From Deltaproteobacteria bacterium (GTDB lineage Bacteria; Desulfobacterota; Desulfobaccia; Desulfobaccales; 0-14-0-80-60-11), in NCBI GenBank assembly GCA_016208235.1, contig JACQYN010000014.1:203-64202 (forward strand): a DNA stretch of 64,000 nt, in the 5' to 3' direction. A model generated the notes under the pieces. That model was not told the origin of the DNA. It saw only the letters and a program-made list of their open reading frames with translations, and made no database searches. A program made the position numbers and the translations under genes. Numbering within the stretch: the first letter of the stretch is position 1; each line of letters begins with the position of its first letter. Positions 1,447 to 62,119 of this stretch are shown here, piece by piece.

Positions 1447-1654
1447 TCTGGTTCCCAAGCTGTGCTTGGGAACCCACTTAGGCGCAAAGCTGTGCTTTGC
1501 AAATCAACTCAAAAAGTTAACCATTATTTCGGCATGAAAAAATCTTAAATTCCCAAGCCGCTTGGGATACAGCGGTGTTCCCAAGTTCAACGTGGGAACG
1601 AGAAATAGGGGGTAATCTTTTAGCCGAAAACCGAAAACTGAAAACCGAAAACCG
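1447..1654. repeat. cluster of GTTCCCAAGC...GCTTGGGAAC hairpins plus a (GAAAACN)4 array
   Basis: Hairpins at 1447-1470, 1478-1500, 1549-1567 and 1577-1600, plus CCGAAAACCGAAAACTGAAAACCGAAAACCG at 1624-1654. Confidence 0.85.
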
Positions 1655-25735: not shown

Positions 25736-26012
25736 CCAGTAGTCAGTGGCCAGTGGCCAGTGGTCAGTGGCCAGTGGTCAGTAGTCATACCGAGTTGCAG
25801 TCAAAAAGGTATTAAAACGTAGGGGCGAACCTTGTGTTCGCCCGGTCGCTCCAGGGCGAACACAAGGTTCGCCCCTACGAAAAAATATGCCTTTGATGAC
25901 TAATTGGTATCAGTAGTCAGAATCGGCATCCGAGAACTTGCCTCAAAACAGAAAACAGAAAACAGAATACTGGCCACTGACCACTGACCACTGACCACTG
26001 ACCACTGAACAC
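25736..26012. repeat. 277-bp composite imperfect palindrome (heptamer arms + REP doublet core)
   Basis: Outer arms are (CAGTGGY)n at 25736-25787 against (CCACTGA)n at 25971-26012. The inner pair is ATACCGAGTTGCAGTCAAAAAGG against CCTTTGATGACTAATTGGTAT. The core is GTAGGGGCGAACCTTGTGTTCGCCC...GGGCGAACACAAGGTTCGCCCCTAC (25819-25878). Confidence 0.92.
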
Positions 26013-29266: not shown

Positions 29267-29437
29267 ACGGTTTTCAGTTTTAAGTTTTCAGTTTTCGGTA
29301 AATTTTAAGAATAAGAGGCGACCCCACGGGTCGCCTTTTATCATTTTAGGGTTTAGAGATTTAGTAAAGACAGAGATAGTCTGATTAACAGGCTCTTTTT
29401 TTTACGAAAAACGGAAAACAGAAAACAGAAAACTGCC
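29267..29437. repeat. (GTTTTCN)n / (GAAAACN)n inverted arms enclosing a terminator hairpin
   Basis: GACGGTTTTCAGTTTTAAGTTTTCAGTTTTCGGTA (29267-29300) against ACGAAAAACGGAAAACAGAAAACAGAAAACTGCC (29404-29437). Confidence 0.88.
29316..29347 (+). terminator. intrinsic terminator
   Basis: AGGCGACC-CCACG-GGTCGCCT followed by TTTTATCATTTT, about 50 nt after the stop at 29265. Confidence 0.65.
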
Positions 29438-34536: not shown

Positions 34537-34640
34537 AAGTGGTCAGTTGTCAGTGGCCAGTGGCCAGTATGGGCATCCAAGACTCTTGATTCAAAACTGA
34601 CCACTGACCACTGGTTACTGATCACTGGCCATTGTCAACT
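34537..34640. repeat. (CAGTGGY)n inverted arms
   Basis: AAGTGGTCAGTTGTCAGTGGCCAGTGGCCAGTAT against ACTGACCACTGACCACTGGTTACTGATCACTGGCCATTGTCAACT. Confidence 0.88.
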
Positions 34641-46536: not shown

Positions 46537-46744
46537 TACCGTTTTGGGTTTTTAGTTTTTGGTTTTTCGTGAAAATAGGGGCGGGGGTGTGTCGCAACTG
46601 TGCCGCTTGGCGCCGGGGATGGTTTGGGGATAAGGCGGTGTTTTTGCGGATTATTTCGGGTTGAGTCGGAGAAATTGCGGAACAGGGGGCGGGGGGGAGG
46701 AAAAGGGTTAGCGAGGTTAGGGAAAAGCGGGGAAGGGGGCGCAA

Positions 46745-47062
46745 AAGACCCACCCCCACCCCGACCCTCCCCCCTCAAGGGGGAGGGGGTTTGCACGCCG
46801 GGGACGGCAGATGATTTACGATACCCCTGACATCCAAATGGGAGGAATTTGGGGCTTGGGCAGGGGAGAGAGCGTGGTTGGTCAGGGGGAGGGGGCATGG
46901 TATTAGAGCAGATTATAGGCGGCCTGCGGCCACCGTTTTTGTGGGGGACGGCGGGCGCGGCAAACCCTCTATCCAATTCTCGTATCCGGTTCTCGGCGTA
47001 CAAGGGGTCTTTTCCCCCTCCCCCTTGAGGGGGGAGGGCCGGGGTGGGGGTGAATTGGGGTG
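46745..47062. repeat. inverted pair of G-rich CCCTCAAGGGGGAGGGG elements about 220 bp apart, in a G-tract-dense spacer
   Basis: CCCACCCCCACCCCGACCCTCCCCCCTCAAGGGGGAGGGGG (about 46750-46793) against CCCCCTCCCCCTTGAGGGGGGAGGGCCGGGGTGGGGGTG (about 47017-47059). Confidence 0.85.
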
Positions 47063-47101
47063 GAAAGGGCCTCAATGCCGGACATTGGCCAGGGGGCAGG
47101 A

Positions 47102-47467: not shown

Positions 47468-47613
47468 TTAAAGACCGTTTTCGGTTTTCAGTTTTCGGTT
47501 TTCGGTAAAAGAATCAGGATCAGGATAAGGTTATCAGGGGAGGGGGCAGGGGGCCAGTACGGGTTGTACAGTTGGCAGGAAAAAAGGCGAAAAGGTTCAA
47601 AAATGTAAAGTTT

Positions 47614-47642
47614 TTGACAAAAAGCCAAATATGAACTAACAT
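47614..47642 (+). promoter_or_regulatory. sigma70-like promoter candidate for the ATPase-Toprim gene
   Basis: TTGACA (47614-47619), a 17-nt spacer, then TAACAT (47637-47642). Confidence 0.35.
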
Positions 47643-47761
47643 AGGCACAAGCTGAAGGCTTAGAGGGGCGAAGAAGGCGGCGGGCAGTGGTCTTTCCACA
47701 ATGACTGCTAATTATAAATATAAAACATTATATCAATAATATAAGAAGTATTGAGAATATA

Positions 47762-49315
47762 ATGAAATATCTATACTCGCAATTAGACAAAGATAATTTC
47801 AGTTGGTTTGCTCAAGATATGAGTGTGGCCTCCTTAACGGAAATCGATCTCCGACGTGGAAGTTTGCGAGGTTTGAATGGATTTCAAATTAAGATCACCT
47901 ATCCAATATCGGTGATTGCTGGCAAAAACAGGTCAGGAAAATCAACAATCCTGGCTATGGCCTGCTGTGCTTTTCATAATCGTAAAGAGGGATTTAAACT
48001 ACCTGAAAGAAGATTAACCTATTATTCGTTCTCTGATTTTTTCCTGCAGACTTCAGAAGAAGTTCCATTAGAAGGCATTGCAATATTCTACCGTATAATG
48101 CATAACAATTGGAAAAAATCTAAATATGCACCTGACGGTTCCGGTAACCTATTTCAATCGCGAGTGAAAAGAAGAGGGGGAAAATGGAACAATTATGATA
48201 GGCGGGTAAAAAGAAATGTAGTGTTTCTAGGTGTACAGAGGGTGGTTCCGCATTCCGAGAAAAGCATTTCAACGAGTTATAGGACCTATTTTTCAGATCA
48301 AGCCCCTGCTGGATGGGAGACAGAGGTAAAGGAGGTGGTAGGAAGAATTCTAGGCGCATCTTACGACAGCTTCTGGATGAAAACTTATGGAAGGTATCAT
48401 CTGCCCCTTGTTGCCAACCGTGGGAATATATATTCAGGATTCAATATGGGAGCAGGCGAAAATGCCTTGTTTGAAATATTCTCCATAATTCATGCTACCC
48501 CCAAAGGAACCTTACTTGTCATTGATGAAATCGAGCTTGGGCTTCATGAAGCCGCCCAAAAGAAATTAATCAAAGAACTAAAAGAAGTATGTAGGGAAAG
48601 ACATATTCAAGTAATCTGTACCACCCATTCGGCAGCGATAATTGAAGCAGTTCCTCCAGAAGCTCGTTTTTATATAGAAAATTTTTCTGGAAAAACTAGT
48701 ATTACCCCTGGTATCTCGTCAGCTTACGCAGCAGGGAAGCTCTCAGGGGAAAAATCAAATGAATTGGATATATACGTAGAGGATGGGAAGGCTGAAACTA
48801 TTGTGGAACCATTTTTAAGTAATGATGTAAGAAAGCGTGTATCAATAATTCCGATAGGTTCTCCAATAACAATTATCCGCCATATGGCTGGACGATATAA
48901 AGAAAAAAGGAAAGCAGAATGTATATGTGTTATGGATGGTGACCAGGCAGCGAAAATCCGTCATCATATGAAAAAGTTTCTGGAGGCTTTGGAAAACAGC
49001 AAAGACACTGAAAAAGAGATAGAATGGTTTGAACAAAGATTGGTATTTTTGCCAGGAAAAACTTGGCCTGAAAAATGGTTGATTCAAACTCTTAGATCAA
49101 TAGACCTAAGCGAATTAGCTGAGATTTTACGGATTTCCAAAGAAGAGCTTTCTTCTTATATTGAAGATGCGACAAGTGCAAAAAAACATGATGAAATTTA
49201 CATATTAGCAAAGAGCTTATCGCTAAATCATCAACATGCATGCTCTACGATATGCCAGTGGTTATCGCGGGTAAAAAATGAGGAGTTTGCTTTAATAGAT
49301 CAAAAGATAAGATAA
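47762..49315 (+). CDS. ABC-type (AAA_15/21-like) ATPase fused to a Toprim/DUF4435-like domain; OLD-family / fused PARIS-like defence candidate
   Basis: Walker A VIAGKNRSGKSTIL; signature-like FNMGAGENALF; Walker B LLVIDEIELGLHE; H-loop ICTTHS. The C-terminal IYVEDGKAE and CVMDGDQ (E...DxD, 52 residues apart) fit a Toprim fold. The gene is strongly AT-rich relative to its flanks. Confidence 0.65.
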   Translation: MKYLYSQLDKDNFSWFAQDMSVASLTEIDLRRGSLRGLNGFQIKITYPISVIAGKNRSGKSTILAMACCAFHNRKEGFKLPERRLTYYSFSDFFLQTSEEVPLEGIAIFYRIMHNNWKKSKYAPDGSGNLFQSRVKRRGGKWNNYDRRVKRNVVFLGVQRVVPHSEKSISTSYRTYFSDQAPAGWETEVKEVVGRILGASYDSFWMKTYGRYHLPLVANRGNIYSGFNMGAGENALFEIFSIIHATPKGTLLVIDEIELGLHEAAQKKLIKELKEVCRERHIQVICTTHSAAIIEAVPPEARFYIENFSGKTSITPGISSAYAAGKLSGEKSNELDIYVEDGKAETIVEPFLSNDVRKRVSIIPIGSPITIIRHMAGRYKEKRKAECICVMDGDQAAKIRHHMKKFLEALENSKDTEKEIEWFEQRLVFLPGKTWPEKWLIQTLRSIDLSELAEILRISKEELSSYIEDATSAKKHDEIYILAKSLSLNHQHACSTICQWLSRVKNEEFALIDQKIR

Positions 49316-49494
49316 GAAACTTCTTAAGATAACCCAGCACAGGCAAGATGCCTGTGCCACCAAAAGAAAGATTCTTCGGTCGCTTCGCTTCCTCAGAATG
49401 ACAGTTTTTCTTTTACTGGCCACTGGCTACTGGCCACTGACCACTATTCCCCGATCTCCATCCCCACAAATACTCCTCTCCAATCCCACACCCC

Positions 49495-51505: not shown

Positions 51506-51633
51506 AAGAAGTGGTCAGTGGTCAGTGGCCAGTGGCCAGTTAATCAGTAATCAGTGGTCAGGGGTCAGAGGGAAAAGAAGTGGTCAGTGGCCAGAGAAAA
51601 AACTGATTACTGATCACTGACCACTGGCCACTG
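51506..51633. repeat. (CAGTGGY)n arms and GGTCAGGGGTCAG segment downstream of the GYD gene
   Basis: AAGAAGTGGTCAGTGGTCAGTGGCCAGTGGCCAG...GGTCAGGGGTCAGAGGGAAAAGAAGTGGTCAGTGGCC...CTGATTACTGATCACTGACCACTGGCCACTG. Confidence 0.88.
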
Positions 51634-51643
51634 TATCCCGGCC

Positions 51644-51928: not shown

Positions 51929-52027
51929 GTGCAACCCTCCTTAAAGACGGTTTTCAGTTTTCGGTTTTCGGTTTGGGGTTTGGGTTTTTGCGTTTAAAAA
52001 AAACGGATTACAGAGCCCCACGCAACA

Positions 52028-59236: not shown

Positions 59237-60202
59237 ATGCGCCGCACCGGCTATGTCTATGATGAACGTTACCTGAGGCATGACCCCGGGGCCTGGCATC
59301 CGGAACGCCCCGACCGCTTGAAGGCCATCCAGAAAAACCTCCAGGAATCGGGCCTCACCGAGTTGGTGACGCCCATCCAACCCTATGAGGCCCCCCTTAA
59401 GTGGGTGGAGCGTCTCCACGACCCCGATTATATCCGGCGTTTTCGGGAGGCTTGCGCCCAGGGCAAGAACATCTTTGAGGTGCCGGATTGCGGCATCTGT
59501 CCGGAATCTTACGACATTGCGCTATTGGCCGCAGGCGGCGTACTGGCCGCGGCGGACGCGGTCATGGAGGGGAAGGTGGACAACGCCTTCTGCGCGGTGC
59601 GGCCTCCGGGACATCATGCCGAACGTAACCGGGCGCTGGGATTCTGCTTTTTTAACAACATAGCTATAGGCGCGGTTTATCTTTTGGAAAATTACGGCCT
59701 GGAACGGGTGGCCATCGTGGATTGGGATGTGCACCACGGCAACGGCACCCAACATCTCTTCGAAGCCGACCCCCGGGTATTTTATCTGTCCCTGCACGAA
59801 GACCCCGAATATTGCTATCCCGGCACCGGTTACCGCCGGGAGACGGGTAAGGGTCCAGGCCAGGGTTTTACCCTGAACCTGCCTTTTCCCCCCCGGAGCG
59901 GGGACGAGGACTATCTGGAAGCCTTGAAAAAAGAGGGCATACCCCGCTTGATGGAATTTGCCCCCCAAGTTTTATTGATTTCCGCGGGCTTCGATGCCCA
60001 CCAGAGCGACCCCCTGGCCCATATGAACCTGAGCCGGGATGCTTACCGGCAGATGGGGCGGATCCTCCTGGATTTGGCCCAGGAGACCGCTGGTGGCCGG
60101 CTCATCACGGTACTGGAAGGGGGATACAACCTGGAAGTCCTGGAAGAATGCACCGAGGACCACATCCGGTTGCTCTTGGACATACCCCTGGACCATTTTT
60201 GA
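59237..60202 (+). CDS. histone deacetylase-family amidohydrolase (AcuC/HDAC-like)
   Basis: RPPGHHA, DWDVHHGNGTQ and SAGFDAH motifs. Confidence 0.88.
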   Translation: MRRTGYVYDERYLRHDPGAWHPERPDRLKAIQKNLQESGLTELVTPIQPYEAPLKWVERLHDPDYIRRFREACAQGKNIFEVPDCGICPESYDIALLAAGGVLAAADAVMEGKVDNAFCAVRPPGHHAERNRALGFCFFNNIAIGAVYLLENYGLERVAIVDWDVHHGNGTQHLFEADPRVFYLSLHEDPEYCYPGTGYRRETGKGPGQGFTLNLPFPPRSGDEDYLEALKKEGIPRLMEFAPQVLLISAGFDAHQSDPLAHMNLSRDAYRQMGRILLDLAQETAGGRLITVLEGGYNLEVLEECTEDHIRLLLDIPLDHF

Positions 60203-60594
60203 GGGGCAAGGGCGGTTTTTAGTTTTTGGTTTTCAGTTTTTAGTTTTTAGTAAAAAGATGTGGGGCGGATTTGCCTGCGGGATTTGATTCCGGCCAGCCC
60301 TCCATACCTATTTTCACTTGCAAATAATACAAACCCACAATGTTCTGCTAATCTTTTAACTATTCAACTACAAACGCAAAACTAAAAACTATATTTAAAT
60401 TTCTTGACAGCTCTGGGCAAAATGTGCTACAGGGCTGAATATCCTTTAGTCAGGCGCAATGCAGTGAATCGGGGCGACTTAGCAACTTAGCAAGGCAATG
60501 ACGGTATGGCGGGAGCCGGCCGTTTTTTTTTGGCCTGCGCCCCCCGCGGCTGAAAGCCGACAAAGGAATCCAGGTCGAAGGAGCGGGAGGAGTT

Positions 60595-60801
60595 ATGGAA
60601 CGCTATACCGGCAGTGTCAAGTGGTTCAATGAGGCCAAGGGGTATGGCTTCATCAAGCGGGATGACGGCCCCGACCTGTTCGTGCATTACACCAATATCG
60701 TGGGCAGCGGCTTCCGCACCTTGAAGGAAGACGACAAGGTGGAATTCGAAGTAAACGAAGGCCCCAAGGGTTTGCAGGCGGTAAAGGTCAGCAAGATCTG
60801 A
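60595..60801 (+). CDS. cspA: cold-shock protein (CspA family)
   Basis: [15 protein letters not shown] (RNP1) and DLFVHY (RNP2); 68 aa. Confidence 0.93.
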
Positions 60802-60886
60802 CGCAGTAATTTAAGCATCGGCAGGCTCAGAAGGTCGCACCAGGAAATCGCTCCCGCGTCTTGGCCTTGCGGCAACGGCGTGTATG

Positions 60887-60942
60887 GCGGTATAAGCTGT
60901 GGTTTTTGCGGTTCGCCTTATACCGCTTTTTTCTTTTATATG
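60887..60942 (+). terminator. candidate intrinsic terminator downstream of cspA
   Basis: GCGGTATAAG ... CTTATACCGC (10-bp stem, long loop) followed by TTTTTT. Confidence 0.45.
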
Positions 60943-61140
60943 CCTGGGATACCAAGTAAAGGTGGGGCGGGCCTCTGTGCCCGCCATTTTTATTTTTGTA
61001 GATTCCGTTGGGGCGAATTCCATGGCTGTCTGCTAAGGCTATAAAGGCCGTAGGAGCTGGTTTTCCACCCCCTTACGGACTCTGAACCCTTCCCTCCCTA
61101 ACCCGCAAATAAGCTGGGACCGGCGAACTAGCGGGGACGG

Positions 61141-61293
61141 CTAACTTACCTGCTTAAGTCGGTGGTTCTTCCTGTTATGCTCAACGTTGAACAGCACATG
61201 ACCTTTTTTCGAATAGCCCAAAAAATTTACTACGCAACAGGCCAGGGCAAATCCGCCGAACCCACAAATGATCCAAAACGGGGTGGCGTCCAT
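61141..61293 (-). CDS. possible 50-aa small membrane protein (not in the ORF track)
   Basis: My own translation is MDATPFWIICGFGGFALACCVVNFLGYSKKGHVLFNVEHNRKNHRLKQVS. AAGGAAG lies 7 nt upstream of the ATG. Confidence 0.3.
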   Translation of the reverse strand: MDATPFWIICGFGGFALACCVVNFLGYSKKGHVLFNVEHNRKNHRLKQVS

Positions 61294-61407
61294 TTTCGTT
61301 CTTCCTTAGCAAGGGTTAAAAGGGATTTTTATCAAAACTGATTAAAATATGGTTAAAAAATATAATCATATTTTGTCTTTATTCAGGGGAACAGATGTGC
61401 CCACCCC

Positions 61408-61614
61408 TTATAAAAAGGGTGGTTTAACGAAATTACCTGTTTTTATCCAATTTGATAAATAATTTATAAGCCCCATATATGAACGCCTCTCCCCATATTG
61501 CGTAACGAGCTCAAGTCTTTTTTGTAATGGCATAGTAAAATATAGCGGACTTTCAATAAATAGCGATACAATTTCTTTTTTTATTATAATTTTTGATATT
61601 CCATTTGAAGTCAT
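61408..61614 (-). CDS. hypothetical 68-aa ORF in an AT-rich region
   Basis: This is the only track ORF in the 61.3-62.1 kb AT-rich stretch. I recognise no family, and it may be a gene fragment. Confidence 0.2.
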   Translation of the reverse strand: MTSNGISKIIIKKEIVSLFIESPLYFTMPLQKRLELVTQYGERRSYMGLINYLSNWIKTGNFVKPPFL

Positions 61615-62119
61615 TTTGTTGGTATCCTAAGTTATGGCTGATTATATGGCGGCTTCTTAAAAATAATCCACTCTGACCATATCGAATAATTTGTTGACAC
61701 AATACTGTACATTAATCTTACCATTGTCCAGGGAAGTATTAATAACATATGATAGGCAGCCCCAATGAGCAATCCCTTAATGCTGGGTTCAGAAGTTCGA
61801 TTATTATGGAATTTTAACTTCTATTATGCAATTTTAGTGCCGTAACTAATCTATTAAAATTACTAAACATGTTCAAATAAAAGGATAGGGAAATTCCAAT
61901 ATTTTGGAGTATTTTCTAAAATTTTTGAAAAATTAAGCGAGTGATGAATTCATTCAGGCAGGAGGATTATTTTAGGCGGAGAAATAATATCGATTCAGCC
62001 CCGCACGCCGCCGAGGTTTTTTGGCAGCAAGCCCGTTAAAGATCACTGTTATGATCCGAAACTTATCAACTTGCTGAAAATTCAACCTATCTGGATCATA
62101 GTTGCAGGGGCCTGTCCTG

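What the first reader, a model, noticed from the sequence alone, without database searches (positions are those of the whole stretch)
47614..49448. AT-rich islet encoding a single ABC-ATPase/Toprim fusion: compact OLD-family or fused PARIS-like defence candidate
The 517-aa protein is the only gene in a sharply AT-rich segment. By eye the segment is far below the ~60% GC of its flanks; this was not computed.

The N-terminal half has Walker A (GKNRSGKST), an ABC-signature-like loop (GAGENALF), Walker B (LLVIDEIELGLHE) and an H-loop (CTTHS). The C-terminal half has a Glu motif (IYVEDGKAE) and DxD (CVMDGDQ) 52 residues apart. That is the Toprim arrangement found in OLD nucleases, Gabija GajA and the DUF4435 nuclease AriB of PARIS. 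A further ~110-aa helical tail has no match I recognise.

At 517 aa it is shorter than the class 1 OLD, GajA and AriA+AriB architectures I recall, and it has no partner gene. The islet is bounded by repeat debris on both sides: 47473-47510 on the left, and on the right the GCACAGGC hairpin at 49337-49361, a half palindrome at 49369-49404 and (CCACTGG)n at 49413-49448. It lies between a phage-type HTH gene and uvrB. It is the best candidate in this window for a horizontally acquired, possibly uncharacterised minimal anti-phage module.
Basis: partly seen in the sequence, partly recalled or inferred. Interest (0 to 1): 0.65.

Follow-up and report, generated by a model that had tools for sequence, protein, structure and literature searches.

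The report
Standalone HEC-04/IbfA-type ATPase–Toprim defence gene
A foreign-looking, AT-rich 1.9-kb insert next to uvrB carries one gene for an ATP-binding sensor fused to a nuclease; it is a distant member of the HEC-04/IbfA family, whose E. coli and plasmid members are already shown to block phages, so it is a likely anti-phage gene but not a new kind.

Summary
ORF 47762-49315 (+, 517 aa) is the only gene in the most AT-rich stretch of the window (GC 0.39 against 0.585; GC3 0.32 against 0.87 for uvrB).

The C-terminal half is Toprim, shown by profile matches, by topology, and by its one meaningful fold match, the OLD C-terminal region.

It is neither a canonical OLD nuclease nor a fused PARIS system. 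None of 50 family members hits Pfam Toprim_OLD or DUF4435. Its best match is PADLOC HEC-04 (E 1e-44).

It aligns end to end with the experimentally validated E. coli HEC-04 (hhalign 99.9%) and with R64 IbfA (99.8%). The four residues whose mutation abolishes HEC-04 defence align in register: K60, E340, D392 and D394.

Homologs stand alone with no conserved partner. They are scattered across bacteria, archaea, plasmids and prophages, often beside toxin-antitoxin or defence genes.

The flanking "repeat debris" is ordinary intergenic heptamer repeat found throughout the window.

A sibling assembly carries a frameshifting 131-nt deletion in the gene.

Verdict: a new, divergent (about 27% identical) member of a known single-gene defence family. 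Its trigger and substrate are unknown.

The parts
47540..49410 (.). AT-rich islet, GC 0.39 against 0.585 for the rest of the window. It holds one gene and lies between a 121-aa gene of unknown family and uvrB.
   Evidence: It is the lowest-GC 1500-nt stretch of the window.
47614..47642 (+). Promoter-like site TTGACA-17-TAACAT, about 120 nt upstream of the ATG.
   Evidence: 10 of 12 matches. This is a consensus match only; the region has no more such sites than shuffled sequence does.
47762..49315 (+). CDS of 517 aa: HEC-04/IbfA-type ABC ATPase-Toprim protein.
   Evidence: ORF. (PADLOC HEC-04, E 1.1e-44). (alignment to the tested E. coli HEC-04). (R64 IbfA). (model pLDDT 86.7).
47762..48661 (+). 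ABC-ATPase head, residues 1 to about 300. Walker A 54-62 (K60), signature-like SGFNMGAGE 225-233, Walker B 251-258 (D255, E256), H-loop H289.
   Evidence: AAA_21, AAA_15, SMC_N. (these residues are invariant in 50 homologs). (fold matches to OLD, GajA, PtuA, Rad50 and SMC heads).
47921..47947 (+). Walker A GKNRSGKST. K60 aligns with K62 of HEC-04.
48749..49051 (+). Toprim core, residues about 330-430. Strand 1 ends in E340-D341 and strand 3 ends in D392-G-D394.
   Evidence: strand-helix topology. (invariant residues). (ATPase-Toprim_I-B profile covers 229-473). (6NJX OLD C-terminal region, TM about 0.5). (E340 aligns with E319; D392/D394 align with D375/D377 of HEC-04).
49052..49312 (+). C-terminal helical tail, residues 431-517. 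Carries invariant P431, P436, E437, W439, H476 and E478.
   Evidence: conservation. (homologous to the tails of HEC-04 and IbfA). (aligned as part of the OLD Toprim-plus-helical region).
49100..49230 (+). 131-nt segment missing from the sibling assembly GCA_016209115.1. The loss frameshifts the protein after residue 446, giving a 462-aa product that lacks H476 and E478.
   Evidence: The junction shows ATCA microhomology, and the flanking DNA is 99.8-99.9% identical.
49335..49359 (.). GC-rich hairpin (11 pairs) between the convergent ATPase-Toprim gene and uvrB. Probably a shared terminator.
   Evidence: (scored on the minus strand) and the sequence.

Best explanation
The gene encodes a standalone, horizontally acquired ABC-ATPase/Toprim nuclease of the HEC-04/IbfA family, and it most likely acts as a single-protein anti-phage (abortive-infection type) defence.

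Proposed mechanism: the N-terminal ABC head (K60, D255/E256, H289) binds ATP and acts as the sensor or conformational switch. On an infection cue it releases the activity of the C-terminal metal-dependent Toprim nuclease (E340, D392, D394, helped by the conserved helical tail). The nuclease then cuts nucleic acid and stops phage production at a cost to the cell.

Shown here: the architecture, the fold, conservation of every catalytic residue, full-length homology to two proteins with experimental evidence of phage interference, the lack of a partner gene, the foreign composition and the sporadic distribution.

Inferred: that this copy defends its host, what triggers it, its oligomeric state, and its substrate. 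The substrate could be tRNA/RNA, as reported for AriB and P2 OLD, or DNA, as in the in vitro DNA-cleavage activities tabulated for OLD-family proteins in the review. I lean slightly towards RNA or translation arrest, because IbfA leaves phage DNA replication intact.
For: Family assignment:
- PADLOC's best model is HEC-04, E 1.1e-44 at 151 bits, covering residues 34-458.
- R64 IbfA scores 141 bits on the same model, and the tested HEC-04 scores 746 bits.
- BLASTP against the tested E. coli HEC-04 gives E 2e-31 at 27% identity.
- hhalign of the family profile against HEC-04 gives probability 99.9% over 439 columns to the last residue. Against IbfA it gives 99.8% over 436 columns.
- K60, E340, D392 and D394 align with K62, E319, D375 and D377. 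In HEC-04, the K62A mutant and the combined E319A/D375A/D377A mutant each abolish defence (paper 10.1101/2024.01.29.577857).
- IbfA lowers plating efficiency and burst size without blocking phage DNA replication (PMC12111858).

Fold:
- The full model has pLDDT 86.7. Its top matches are Thermus OLD, GajA and the retron Eco8 effector.
- The C-terminal domain model has pLDDT 91.5. Its only meaningful match is the Xanthomonas OLD C-terminal region 6NJX, with 202 columns aligned and TM 0.48/0.51.

Conservation: all catalytic residues are invariant in 50 homologs.

Accessory and mobile character:
- GC3 is 0.32 against 0.87 for uvrB.
- Homolog genes are also AT-richer than their flanks in 4 of the 5 other homolog loci measured.
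- Neighbours differ in every locus examined and there is no shared partner.
- Some loci are defence-island-like, with SLFN helicase, HNH, Fic, Mrr and toxin-antitoxin genes.
- Relatives sit on conjugative plasmids, next to integrases in temperate phages, and in a P2-like prophage between the replication endonuclease and the portal gene.
- None of 80 uvrB loci from other species has the gene.
Against: - No experiment exists on this subfamily.
- Identity to the tested proteins is only 26-28%, and the PADLOC score is a fifth of that of a close HEC-04 member.
- The window shows no other defence genes next to the gene; it sits among housekeeping genes (dnaJ, uvrB, cysS).
- No integrase, tRNA or flanking direct repeat explains how it arrived.
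- The IbfA authors themselves suggest that chromosomal distant homologs may have other roles.
- A sibling population carries a disrupted copy, so the gene may be decaying here.
- The substrate and trigger of HEC-04/IbfA are unknown, so the mechanistic core rests on analogy.
Confidence: 0.7

Rival explanations
1. It is a canonical class 1 OLD nuclease: a standalone member of the P2 Old / Thermus OLD family.
For: The best full-length fold match is Thermus OLD 6P74 (E 5e-14). The best C-terminal match is the Xanthomonas OLD C-terminal region. Class 1 OLDs are defined as single genes away from other defence genes (PMC10568477), which fits this context.
Against: None of 50 family members hits a Toprim_OLD Pfam model at E<=1. 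The PADLOC Old model matches only residues 247-321 of the ATPase (E 3e-10). Sequence and profile affinity is much stronger to HEC-04. TM-scores to OLD are low: 0.30 for the full length and about 0.5 for the domain. The region inserted in the ATPase head (residues about 90-225) is mostly beta-strand in the model. From my own recall, not checked here, OLD's dimerisation insert is helical.
Confidence: 0.12
2. It is a fused PARIS system, with AriA and AriB in one polypeptide.
For: AriA profiles match at E 3e-16. PARIS also pairs an ABC ATPase with a Toprim nuclease.
Against: The AriA matches cover only residues 227-294, the generic Walker B and H-loop region. No member hits DUF4435. No AriB chain appears among the 50 listed matches of the C-terminal domain search. 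At 517 aa the protein is much shorter than AriA (53-55 kDa) plus AriB (35 kDa) (abstracts).
Confidence: 0.04
3. It is an orphaned effector of a type I-B (OLD-type) retron.
For: The PADLOC ATPase-Toprim_I-B model matches at E 8.9e-31 over residues 229-473. Retron Eco8 effector structures are among the top fold matches.
Against: There is no reverse-transcriptase ORF in or beside the islet. No Rfam RNA was found. No RVT family gene appears next to any of the homologs examined. The NCBIfam Eco8 effector model gives 29.8 bits against a cutoff of 250.
Confidence: 0.03
4. It is a housekeeping or DNA-repair ABC ATPase (RecF/SbcC/RecN-like) linked to uvrB, or a decaying passenger gene with no current function.
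For: It lies adjacent to uvrB and close to dnaJ. There are weak SMC_N, RecN and UvrA profile matches. A sibling assembly has a frameshifting deletion. The IbfA authors speculate about non-defence roles for chromosomal homologs.
Against: The repair-family matches fall far below their cutoffs and cover only the Walker B region. The gene is absent from all 80 other uvrB loci, while cysS-uvrB is conserved in 12 of them. Its composition is foreign. The copy in the window is intact, with every catalytic residue conserved.
Confidence: 0.1

Closest known systems
HEC-04 (PADLOC PDLC04149; tested representative E. coli WP_044502283.1, 490 aa)
   Same: Single-gene ABC ATPase fused to TOPRIM plus a helical tail. 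Alignment runs the full length (hhalign 99.9%). The Walker A Lys and the Toprim Glu and DxD that are essential for defence are identical and in register. The tail motif LPGxTxPE and a conserved His are shared.
   Different: Only 27% identical, and 151 bits against 746 on the family model. The window subfamily has an extra stretch of about 24 residues at 80-105 in the ATPase insert and a longer helix after the DxD. The host is an anaerobic Deltaproteobacteria/Thermodesulfobacteriota-type MAG rather than E. coli. The gene is neither Hma-embedded nor prophage-borne here.
IbfA of IncI1 plasmids R64 / pUA1135 (518 aa)
   Same: Same length and architecture. hhalign gives 99.8% over 436 columns. Its score on the HEC-04 model is the same as the window protein's (141 against 151 bits). 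Phage interference was demonstrated with an abortive-infection-like phenotype.
   Different: About 26% identity. IbfA is plasmid-borne in an operon with ProQ/FinO-like and yde/ydf genes. The window gene is chromosomal and monocistronic.
OLD-family nucleases (class 1 Thermus/P2 OLD; class 2 GajA; class 3 retron Eco8 effector)
   Same: N-terminal ABC ATPase plus C-terminal Toprim with helical elements. These are the best structural matches. The standalone organisation resembles class 1.
   Different: No Toprim_OLD Pfam match in any of 50 members. TM-scores are low. The ATPase insert region is mostly beta-strand in the model. There is no helicase or reverse-transcriptase partner.
PARIS (AriA + AriB)
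   Same: The ABC ATPase sensor plus Toprim effector logic.
   Different: PARIS is made of two proteins of 53-55 and 35 kDa. Its Toprim is of the DUF4435 type, which is not detected here.

Membership tests
HEC-04 / IbfA single-gene ATPase-TOPRIM defence | Best-scoring defence-family profile is HEC-04, covering both the ATPase and Toprim parts | tested here: met
   PDLC04149 gives E 1.1e-44 at 151 bits, query 34-458 and profile 34-417 of 494. This is comparable with R64 IbfA at 141 bits. The subfamily member P0084 covers profile 31-480. The score is far below that of a close member (746 bits), so this is a distant branch.
HEC-04 / IbfA single-gene ATPase-TOPRIM defence | Full-length homology to the experimentally tested proteins, including the C-terminal tail | tested here: met
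   hhalign of A1 against E. coli HEC-04: 99.9%, E 1.8e-33, 439 columns to residue 490. Against R64 IbfA: 99.8%, E 8.4e-30, 436 columns.
HEC-04 / IbfA single-gene ATPase-TOPRIM defence | Walker A Lys and Toprim Glu plus DxD, the residues required for HEC-04 defence | tested here: met
   K60, E340, D392 and D394 align with K62, E319, D375 and D377. They are invariant in 50 homologs.
HEC-04 / IbfA single-gene ATPase-TOPRIM defence | Single gene with no obligatory partner | tested here: met
   It is the only gene in the islet. Neighbours differ in the homolog loci examined, and the upstream genes are unrelated to each other.
HEC-04 / IbfA single-gene ATPase-TOPRIM defence | Protects against phage infection | not testable with these tools
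   Needs phage challenge with wild-type and mutant alleles.
OLD family nuclease (classes 1-4) | C-terminal Toprim domain recognised by OLD-type Toprim profiles | tested here: not met
   None of 50 members hits Toprim_OLD in Pfam at E<=1. The PADLOC Old model matches only residues 247-321.
OLD family nuclease (classes 1-4) | Overall fold: ABC ATPase followed by Toprim plus a helical region | tested here: met
   Foldseek top matches are 6P74, 8U7I/8SM3 and 9LPA. The C-terminal domain matches 6NJX at TM 0.48/0.51.
OLD family nuclease (classes 1-4) | Dimerisation domain inserted in the ATPase head | tested here: inconclusive
   The model shows mostly strands and two short helices in residues 90-225. 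No multimer was modelled, and no residue-level superposition on OLD was available.
PARIS (AriA/AriB), fused form | DUF4435-type Toprim (AriB) region | tested here: not met
   No DUF4435 hit in 50 members. No AriB chain among the 50 listed matches of the domain fold search.
PARIS (AriA/AriB), fused form | AriA-type ATPase matched over its length | tested here: not met
   AriA profiles match only residues 227-294.
Retron type I-B (ATPase-Toprim effector) | Adjacent reverse transcriptase and msr/msd ncRNA | tested here: not met
   No RT ORF near the gene. No Rfam hit. No RT next to the homologs examined. The Eco8 effector NCBIfam model gives 29.8 bits against a cutoff of 250.

The most novel reading that the evidence does not exclude
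This clade of about 520-aa proteins may be a functionally distinct single-protein ABC-Toprim system. It comprises roughly 200 clusters at 50% identity, found mainly in anaerobic Thermodesulfobacteriota, Dehalococcoidia and Methanosarcina and other archaea. It has its own ATPase insert and an extended Toprim helix. It might respond to a trigger or cut a substrate that differs from enterobacterial HEC-04/IbfA, for example acting as a tRNase switched on by a replication intermediate, as now proposed for P2 OLD. Alternatively it might have a non-defence role.
Probability: 0.2. Interest if true: 0.5.

Novelty: new member of a known kind. Interest (0 to 1): 0.3.

Why it matters
HEC-04/IbfA is among the smallest ABC-ATPase/Toprim defences, and its trigger and substrate are still unknown. 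This window adds a well-conserved, cross-domain (bacteria and archaea) branch of that family, with every catalytic residue intact. It extends the family well beyond Enterobacteriaceae and provides sequence diversity for finding specificity determinants, namely the ATPase inserts and the helical tail. For genome annotation it replaces "AAA family ATPase" with a specific, testable assignment. It does not reveal a new type of system.

Tried and rejected
1. Empty-site test. uvrB loci were fetched from 80 species, but the closest UvrB is only 69% identical and synteny downstream of uvrB is not conserved. The test therefore shows only that the gene is absent from all of those loci; it cannot give a true before-and-after comparison.

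2. Conserved partner gene. A 221-223-aa gene sits directly upstream in two homolog loci, but the two proteins are unrelated to each other and absent from the window.

3. Integration signatures. There is no tRNA in the window, no integrase or transposase in the islet, and no flanking direct repeats beyond chance 12-16-mers.

4. The heptamer repeats as islet boundaries. Rejected, because they occur window-wide.

5. Retron RNA or other ncRNA. Rfam gave nothing credible.

6. The neighbouring 121-aa gene as a linked regulator. It has no Pfam match, only a weak PHROG transposase-HTH hit (E 0.01), and it does not co-occur with homologs.

7. Sequence search of solved structures. It found only weak Walker B matches to PtuA.

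8. Fold search of the C-terminal domain against viral structures. Nothing significant; short HTH-like matches to the tail are below significance.

Full report
**1. Checking the observation**

- Gene GC is 0.387 and islet 47540-49410 is 0.392, against 0.585 for the rest of the window.
- GC3 is 0.322, against 0.868 for the adjacent uvrB and 0.795 for the upstream 121-aa gene.
- Among 1500-nt windows (mean 0.579, sd 0.047) the minimum, 0.380, falls on this islet.

All the motifs named are present at residues 54 (Walker A), 230, 251 (Walker B), 286 (H-loop), 337 (Glu) and 389 (DxD). E340 to D392 is 52 residues. In an alignment of 50 homologs at 47-78% identity, these residues are invariant: K60, D255/E256, H289, E340/D341 and D392-G-D394. 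So are tail residues P431, P436, E437, W439, H476 and E478.

**2. Corrections to the observation**

The "repeat debris" exists at the stated coordinates but is not specific to the islet.
- (GTTTTCG)n-like arrays occur at 1626, 25951, 29269, 29414, 47476, 51949 and 60221: 19 matches against 0.7 expected.
- (CCACTGG)n arrays occur at 25736, 25974, 34550, 49413, 51515 and 51614: 22 matches against 1.0 expected.

These are dispersed intergenic repeats of the host. The hairpin at 49335-49359 is a terminator-like stem between the convergent gene and uvrB. There is no tRNA, no integrase and no flanking direct repeat. The statement that 517 aa is shorter than class 1 OLDs is wrong, since the Thermus OLD chain is 512 residues.

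**3. What the protein is**

Pfam recognises only the ABC-type ATPase half: AAA_21, AAA_15, AAA_23 and SMC_N. PADLOC models cover both halves. HEC-04 matches at E 1.1e-44 over residues 34-458, and the retron I-B ATPase-Toprim model matches at E 8.9e-31 over residues 229-473. PHROG 3940, of unknown function, matches at 3e-62.

AlphaFold models are confident: pLDDT 86.7 for the full length, and 91.5 with pTM 0.82 for residues 301-517. The C-terminal domain has the Toprim layout, with E340 after strand 1 and DGD after strand 3. Helices follow.

Foldseek places the whole protein nearest Thermus OLD (5e-14), Gabija GajA and the retron Eco8 effector. The isolated C-terminal domain has one meaningful match, the Toprim-plus-helical C-terminal region of Xanthomonas OLD (6NJX): 202 columns against a 204-residue chain, TM 0.48/0.51. 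The Toprim claim therefore stands, and the "unmatched" tail corresponds to the helical region that accompanies OLD-type Toprim domains.

**4. Which family**

The literature gives the identity. [quoted passage not shown] It is a single-gene system that protects E. coli from phages and is toxic when induced. It loses activity in a Walker A mutant (K62A) and in a combined metal-site mutant (E319A/D375A/D377A) (bioRxiv 10.1101/2024.01.29.577857). IbfA of plasmids R64 and pUA1135 (518 aa) is homologous to HEC-04 and causes an abortive-infection-like block of a P22-like phage without stopping phage DNA replication (PMC12111858).

I retrieved the tested HEC-04 sequence (WP_044502283.1) from the paper's table and from E. 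coli strain 789.
- BLASTP against the window protein gives E 2e-31 at 27% identity. K60, E340, D392 and D394 align in register with K62, E319, D375 and D377.
- Profile-to-sequence comparison aligns the window's family with HEC-04 over 439 columns to the last residue (99.9%).
- It aligns with R64 IbfA over 436 columns (99.8%). This includes the tail motif LPGxTxPE and the conserved His.

As a calibration on the PADLOC HEC-04 model, the tested protein scores 746 bits, IbfA 141 bits and the window protein 151 bits. The window protein is thus as much a member as IbfA is: a distant branch of the same family.

**5. What it is not**

None of the 50 family members hits a Toprim_OLD or DUF4435 Pfam model at E<=1. 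AriA models match only residues 227-294, and no AriB chain appears among the 50 listed matches of the domain fold search. No reverse transcriptase or retron RNA is nearby, either here or beside homologs. The Eco8 effector model scores 30 bits against a cutoff of 250. Repair-ATPase models (RecN, RecF, UvrA) are far below their cutoffs.

**6. Distribution and context**

A word-indexed search found 1,339 relatives, the best 120 of them almost all about 521 aa. They come from Thermodesulfobacteriota, Dehalococcoidales, Methanosarcina, Pacearchaeota and others. An exhaustive search of 1.84 billion cluster representatives found 198 clusters at E<=1e-30, most of them full-length matches at 490-545 aa.

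Neighbourhoods differ in every locus examined.
- Methanosarcina: next to a tRNA synthetase gene and HepT/MNT-type toxin-antitoxin genes.
- Another locus: next to a PIN toxin pair.
- Another: between nadC and mfd.
- Two loci are defence-island-like. One carries Fic, MazG, an SLFN-type helicase and two HNH genes. The other carries Mrr, HATPase_c_3 and HNH.

No partner gene is shared. Homolog genes are AT-richer than their flanks in 4 of the 5 other homolog loci measured.

More distant relatives sit on 866 plasmids, mostly conjugative enterobacterial ones. They also sit next to integrases in temperate phages. The tested HEC-04 lies in a P2-like prophage between the replication endonuclease and portal genes; from my own knowledge, that is the P2 hotspot where old itself sits.

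None of 80 uvrB loci from other species carries the gene, although cysS-uvrB is conserved in 12 of them. The closest of those genomes is distant (69% UvrB identity), so this is not a true empty-site test.

**7. A disrupted sibling copy**

The public MAG assembly GCA_016209115.1 matches the window at 99.8-99.9% identity but lacks 49100-49230. That 131-nt deletion has ATCA microhomology at its junction and frameshifts the protein after residue 446. The result is a 462-aa product without the conserved H476 and E478. If the deletion is real rather than an assembly error, it shows the gene is dispensable and can be lost. That fits a costly accessory gene, given that HEC-04 is toxic on induction.

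**8. Mechanism**

The best-supported model is an ABC-ATPase sensor or switch controlling a fused metal-dependent Toprim nuclease, acting alone and giving abortive-infection-type protection. The substrate is open.
- OLD-family proteins cleave DNA in vitro.
- AriB of PARIS cleaves tRNA, and a 2026 preprint reports that P2 OLD also cleaves tRNA after tetramer destabilisation.
- IbfA leaves phage DNA replication intact but reduces late gene expression and viability. This leans towards an RNA or translation target.

None of this has been tested for this clade.

**9. Verdict**

It is, however, a divergent member of a described and experimentally supported family (HEC-04/IbfA), not an uncharacterised module, not PARIS, and not a canonical OLD. 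Novelty: new member of a known kind. Interest is modest (0.3). It comes mainly from the family's unknown trigger and substrate and from the cross-domain spread of this clade.

Noticed in passing
window 1626-1653, 25736-25784, 25951-26008, 29269-29296, 29414-29434, 34550-34614, 47476-47503, 49413-49440, 51515-51542, 51614-51634, 51949-51976, 60221-60241: Two families of tandem heptamer repeats, (GTTTTCG)n and (CCACTGG)n, are scattered through intergenic regions. Both are far above chance: 19 matches against 0.7 expected and 22 against 1.0. The CCACTGG type often occurs as inverted pairs 30-200 nt apart, for example 25736-25784(-) with 25974-26008(+), 34550(-) with 34601(+), and 51515(-) with 51614(+). 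They recall cyanobacterial STRR-type heptamer repeats. Their function is unknown.
   Followed up: partly
window 49100-49230; L010 1620-1626: A sibling public assembly (GCA_016209115.1, 99.8-99.9% identical) lacks 131 nt inside the gene. This frameshifts the C-terminal tail and gives a 462-aa product. The junction has ATCA microhomology. It is either a real loss-of-function polymorphism or an assembly error.
   Followed up: partly
window 60200-62100: A second AT-rich stretch (GC 0.42-0.45). It holds a 68-aa cold-shock-type gene (60595-60801, +), followed by about 1.3 kb with no ORF of 70 aa or more, no Rfam match and no repeats.
   Followed up: partly
window 46540-47100: A 560-bp GC-rich gap between dnaJ and the 121-aa gene, with no convincing ORF. 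It contains two similar G/C-run palindromes (about 46760-46790 CCCCCTCAAGGGGGAGGGGG and about 47014-47040 CCCCTCCCCCTTGAGGGGGGAGGG). The only Rfam matches are spurious miRNA hits below threshold.
   Followed up: no
Its only other hit is a weak PHROG transposase-HTH match (E 0.01). It does not co-occur with homologs of the ATPase-Toprim gene.
   Followed up: partly
L095 7001-8473 (E. coli 789 chromosome): The experimentally tested HEC-04 protein (WP_044502283.1) lies in a P2-like prophage between the replication endonuclease and the portal gene, and RefSeq annotates it 'ATP-dependent nuclease'. From my own knowledge, this is the P2 old/tin defence hotspot.
   Followed up: partly
L097 2328-3940 (Burkholderia phage phiE094): A phage-borne relative is annotated as two adjacent 'AAA family ATPase' CDSs (gp49 and gp48), next to the integrase and followed by a cytidine deaminase gene. 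It may be a split or frameshifted copy.
   Followed up: no
window residues 436-517 of the protein (nt 49067-49312): The last helices give weak, non-significant similarities to HTH domains: Pfam HTH_10 at E 0.1 for residues 445-472, and Foldseek XRE-type HTH hits with probability up to 0.72. This hints at a nucleic-acid-binding role for the tail.
   Followed up: no
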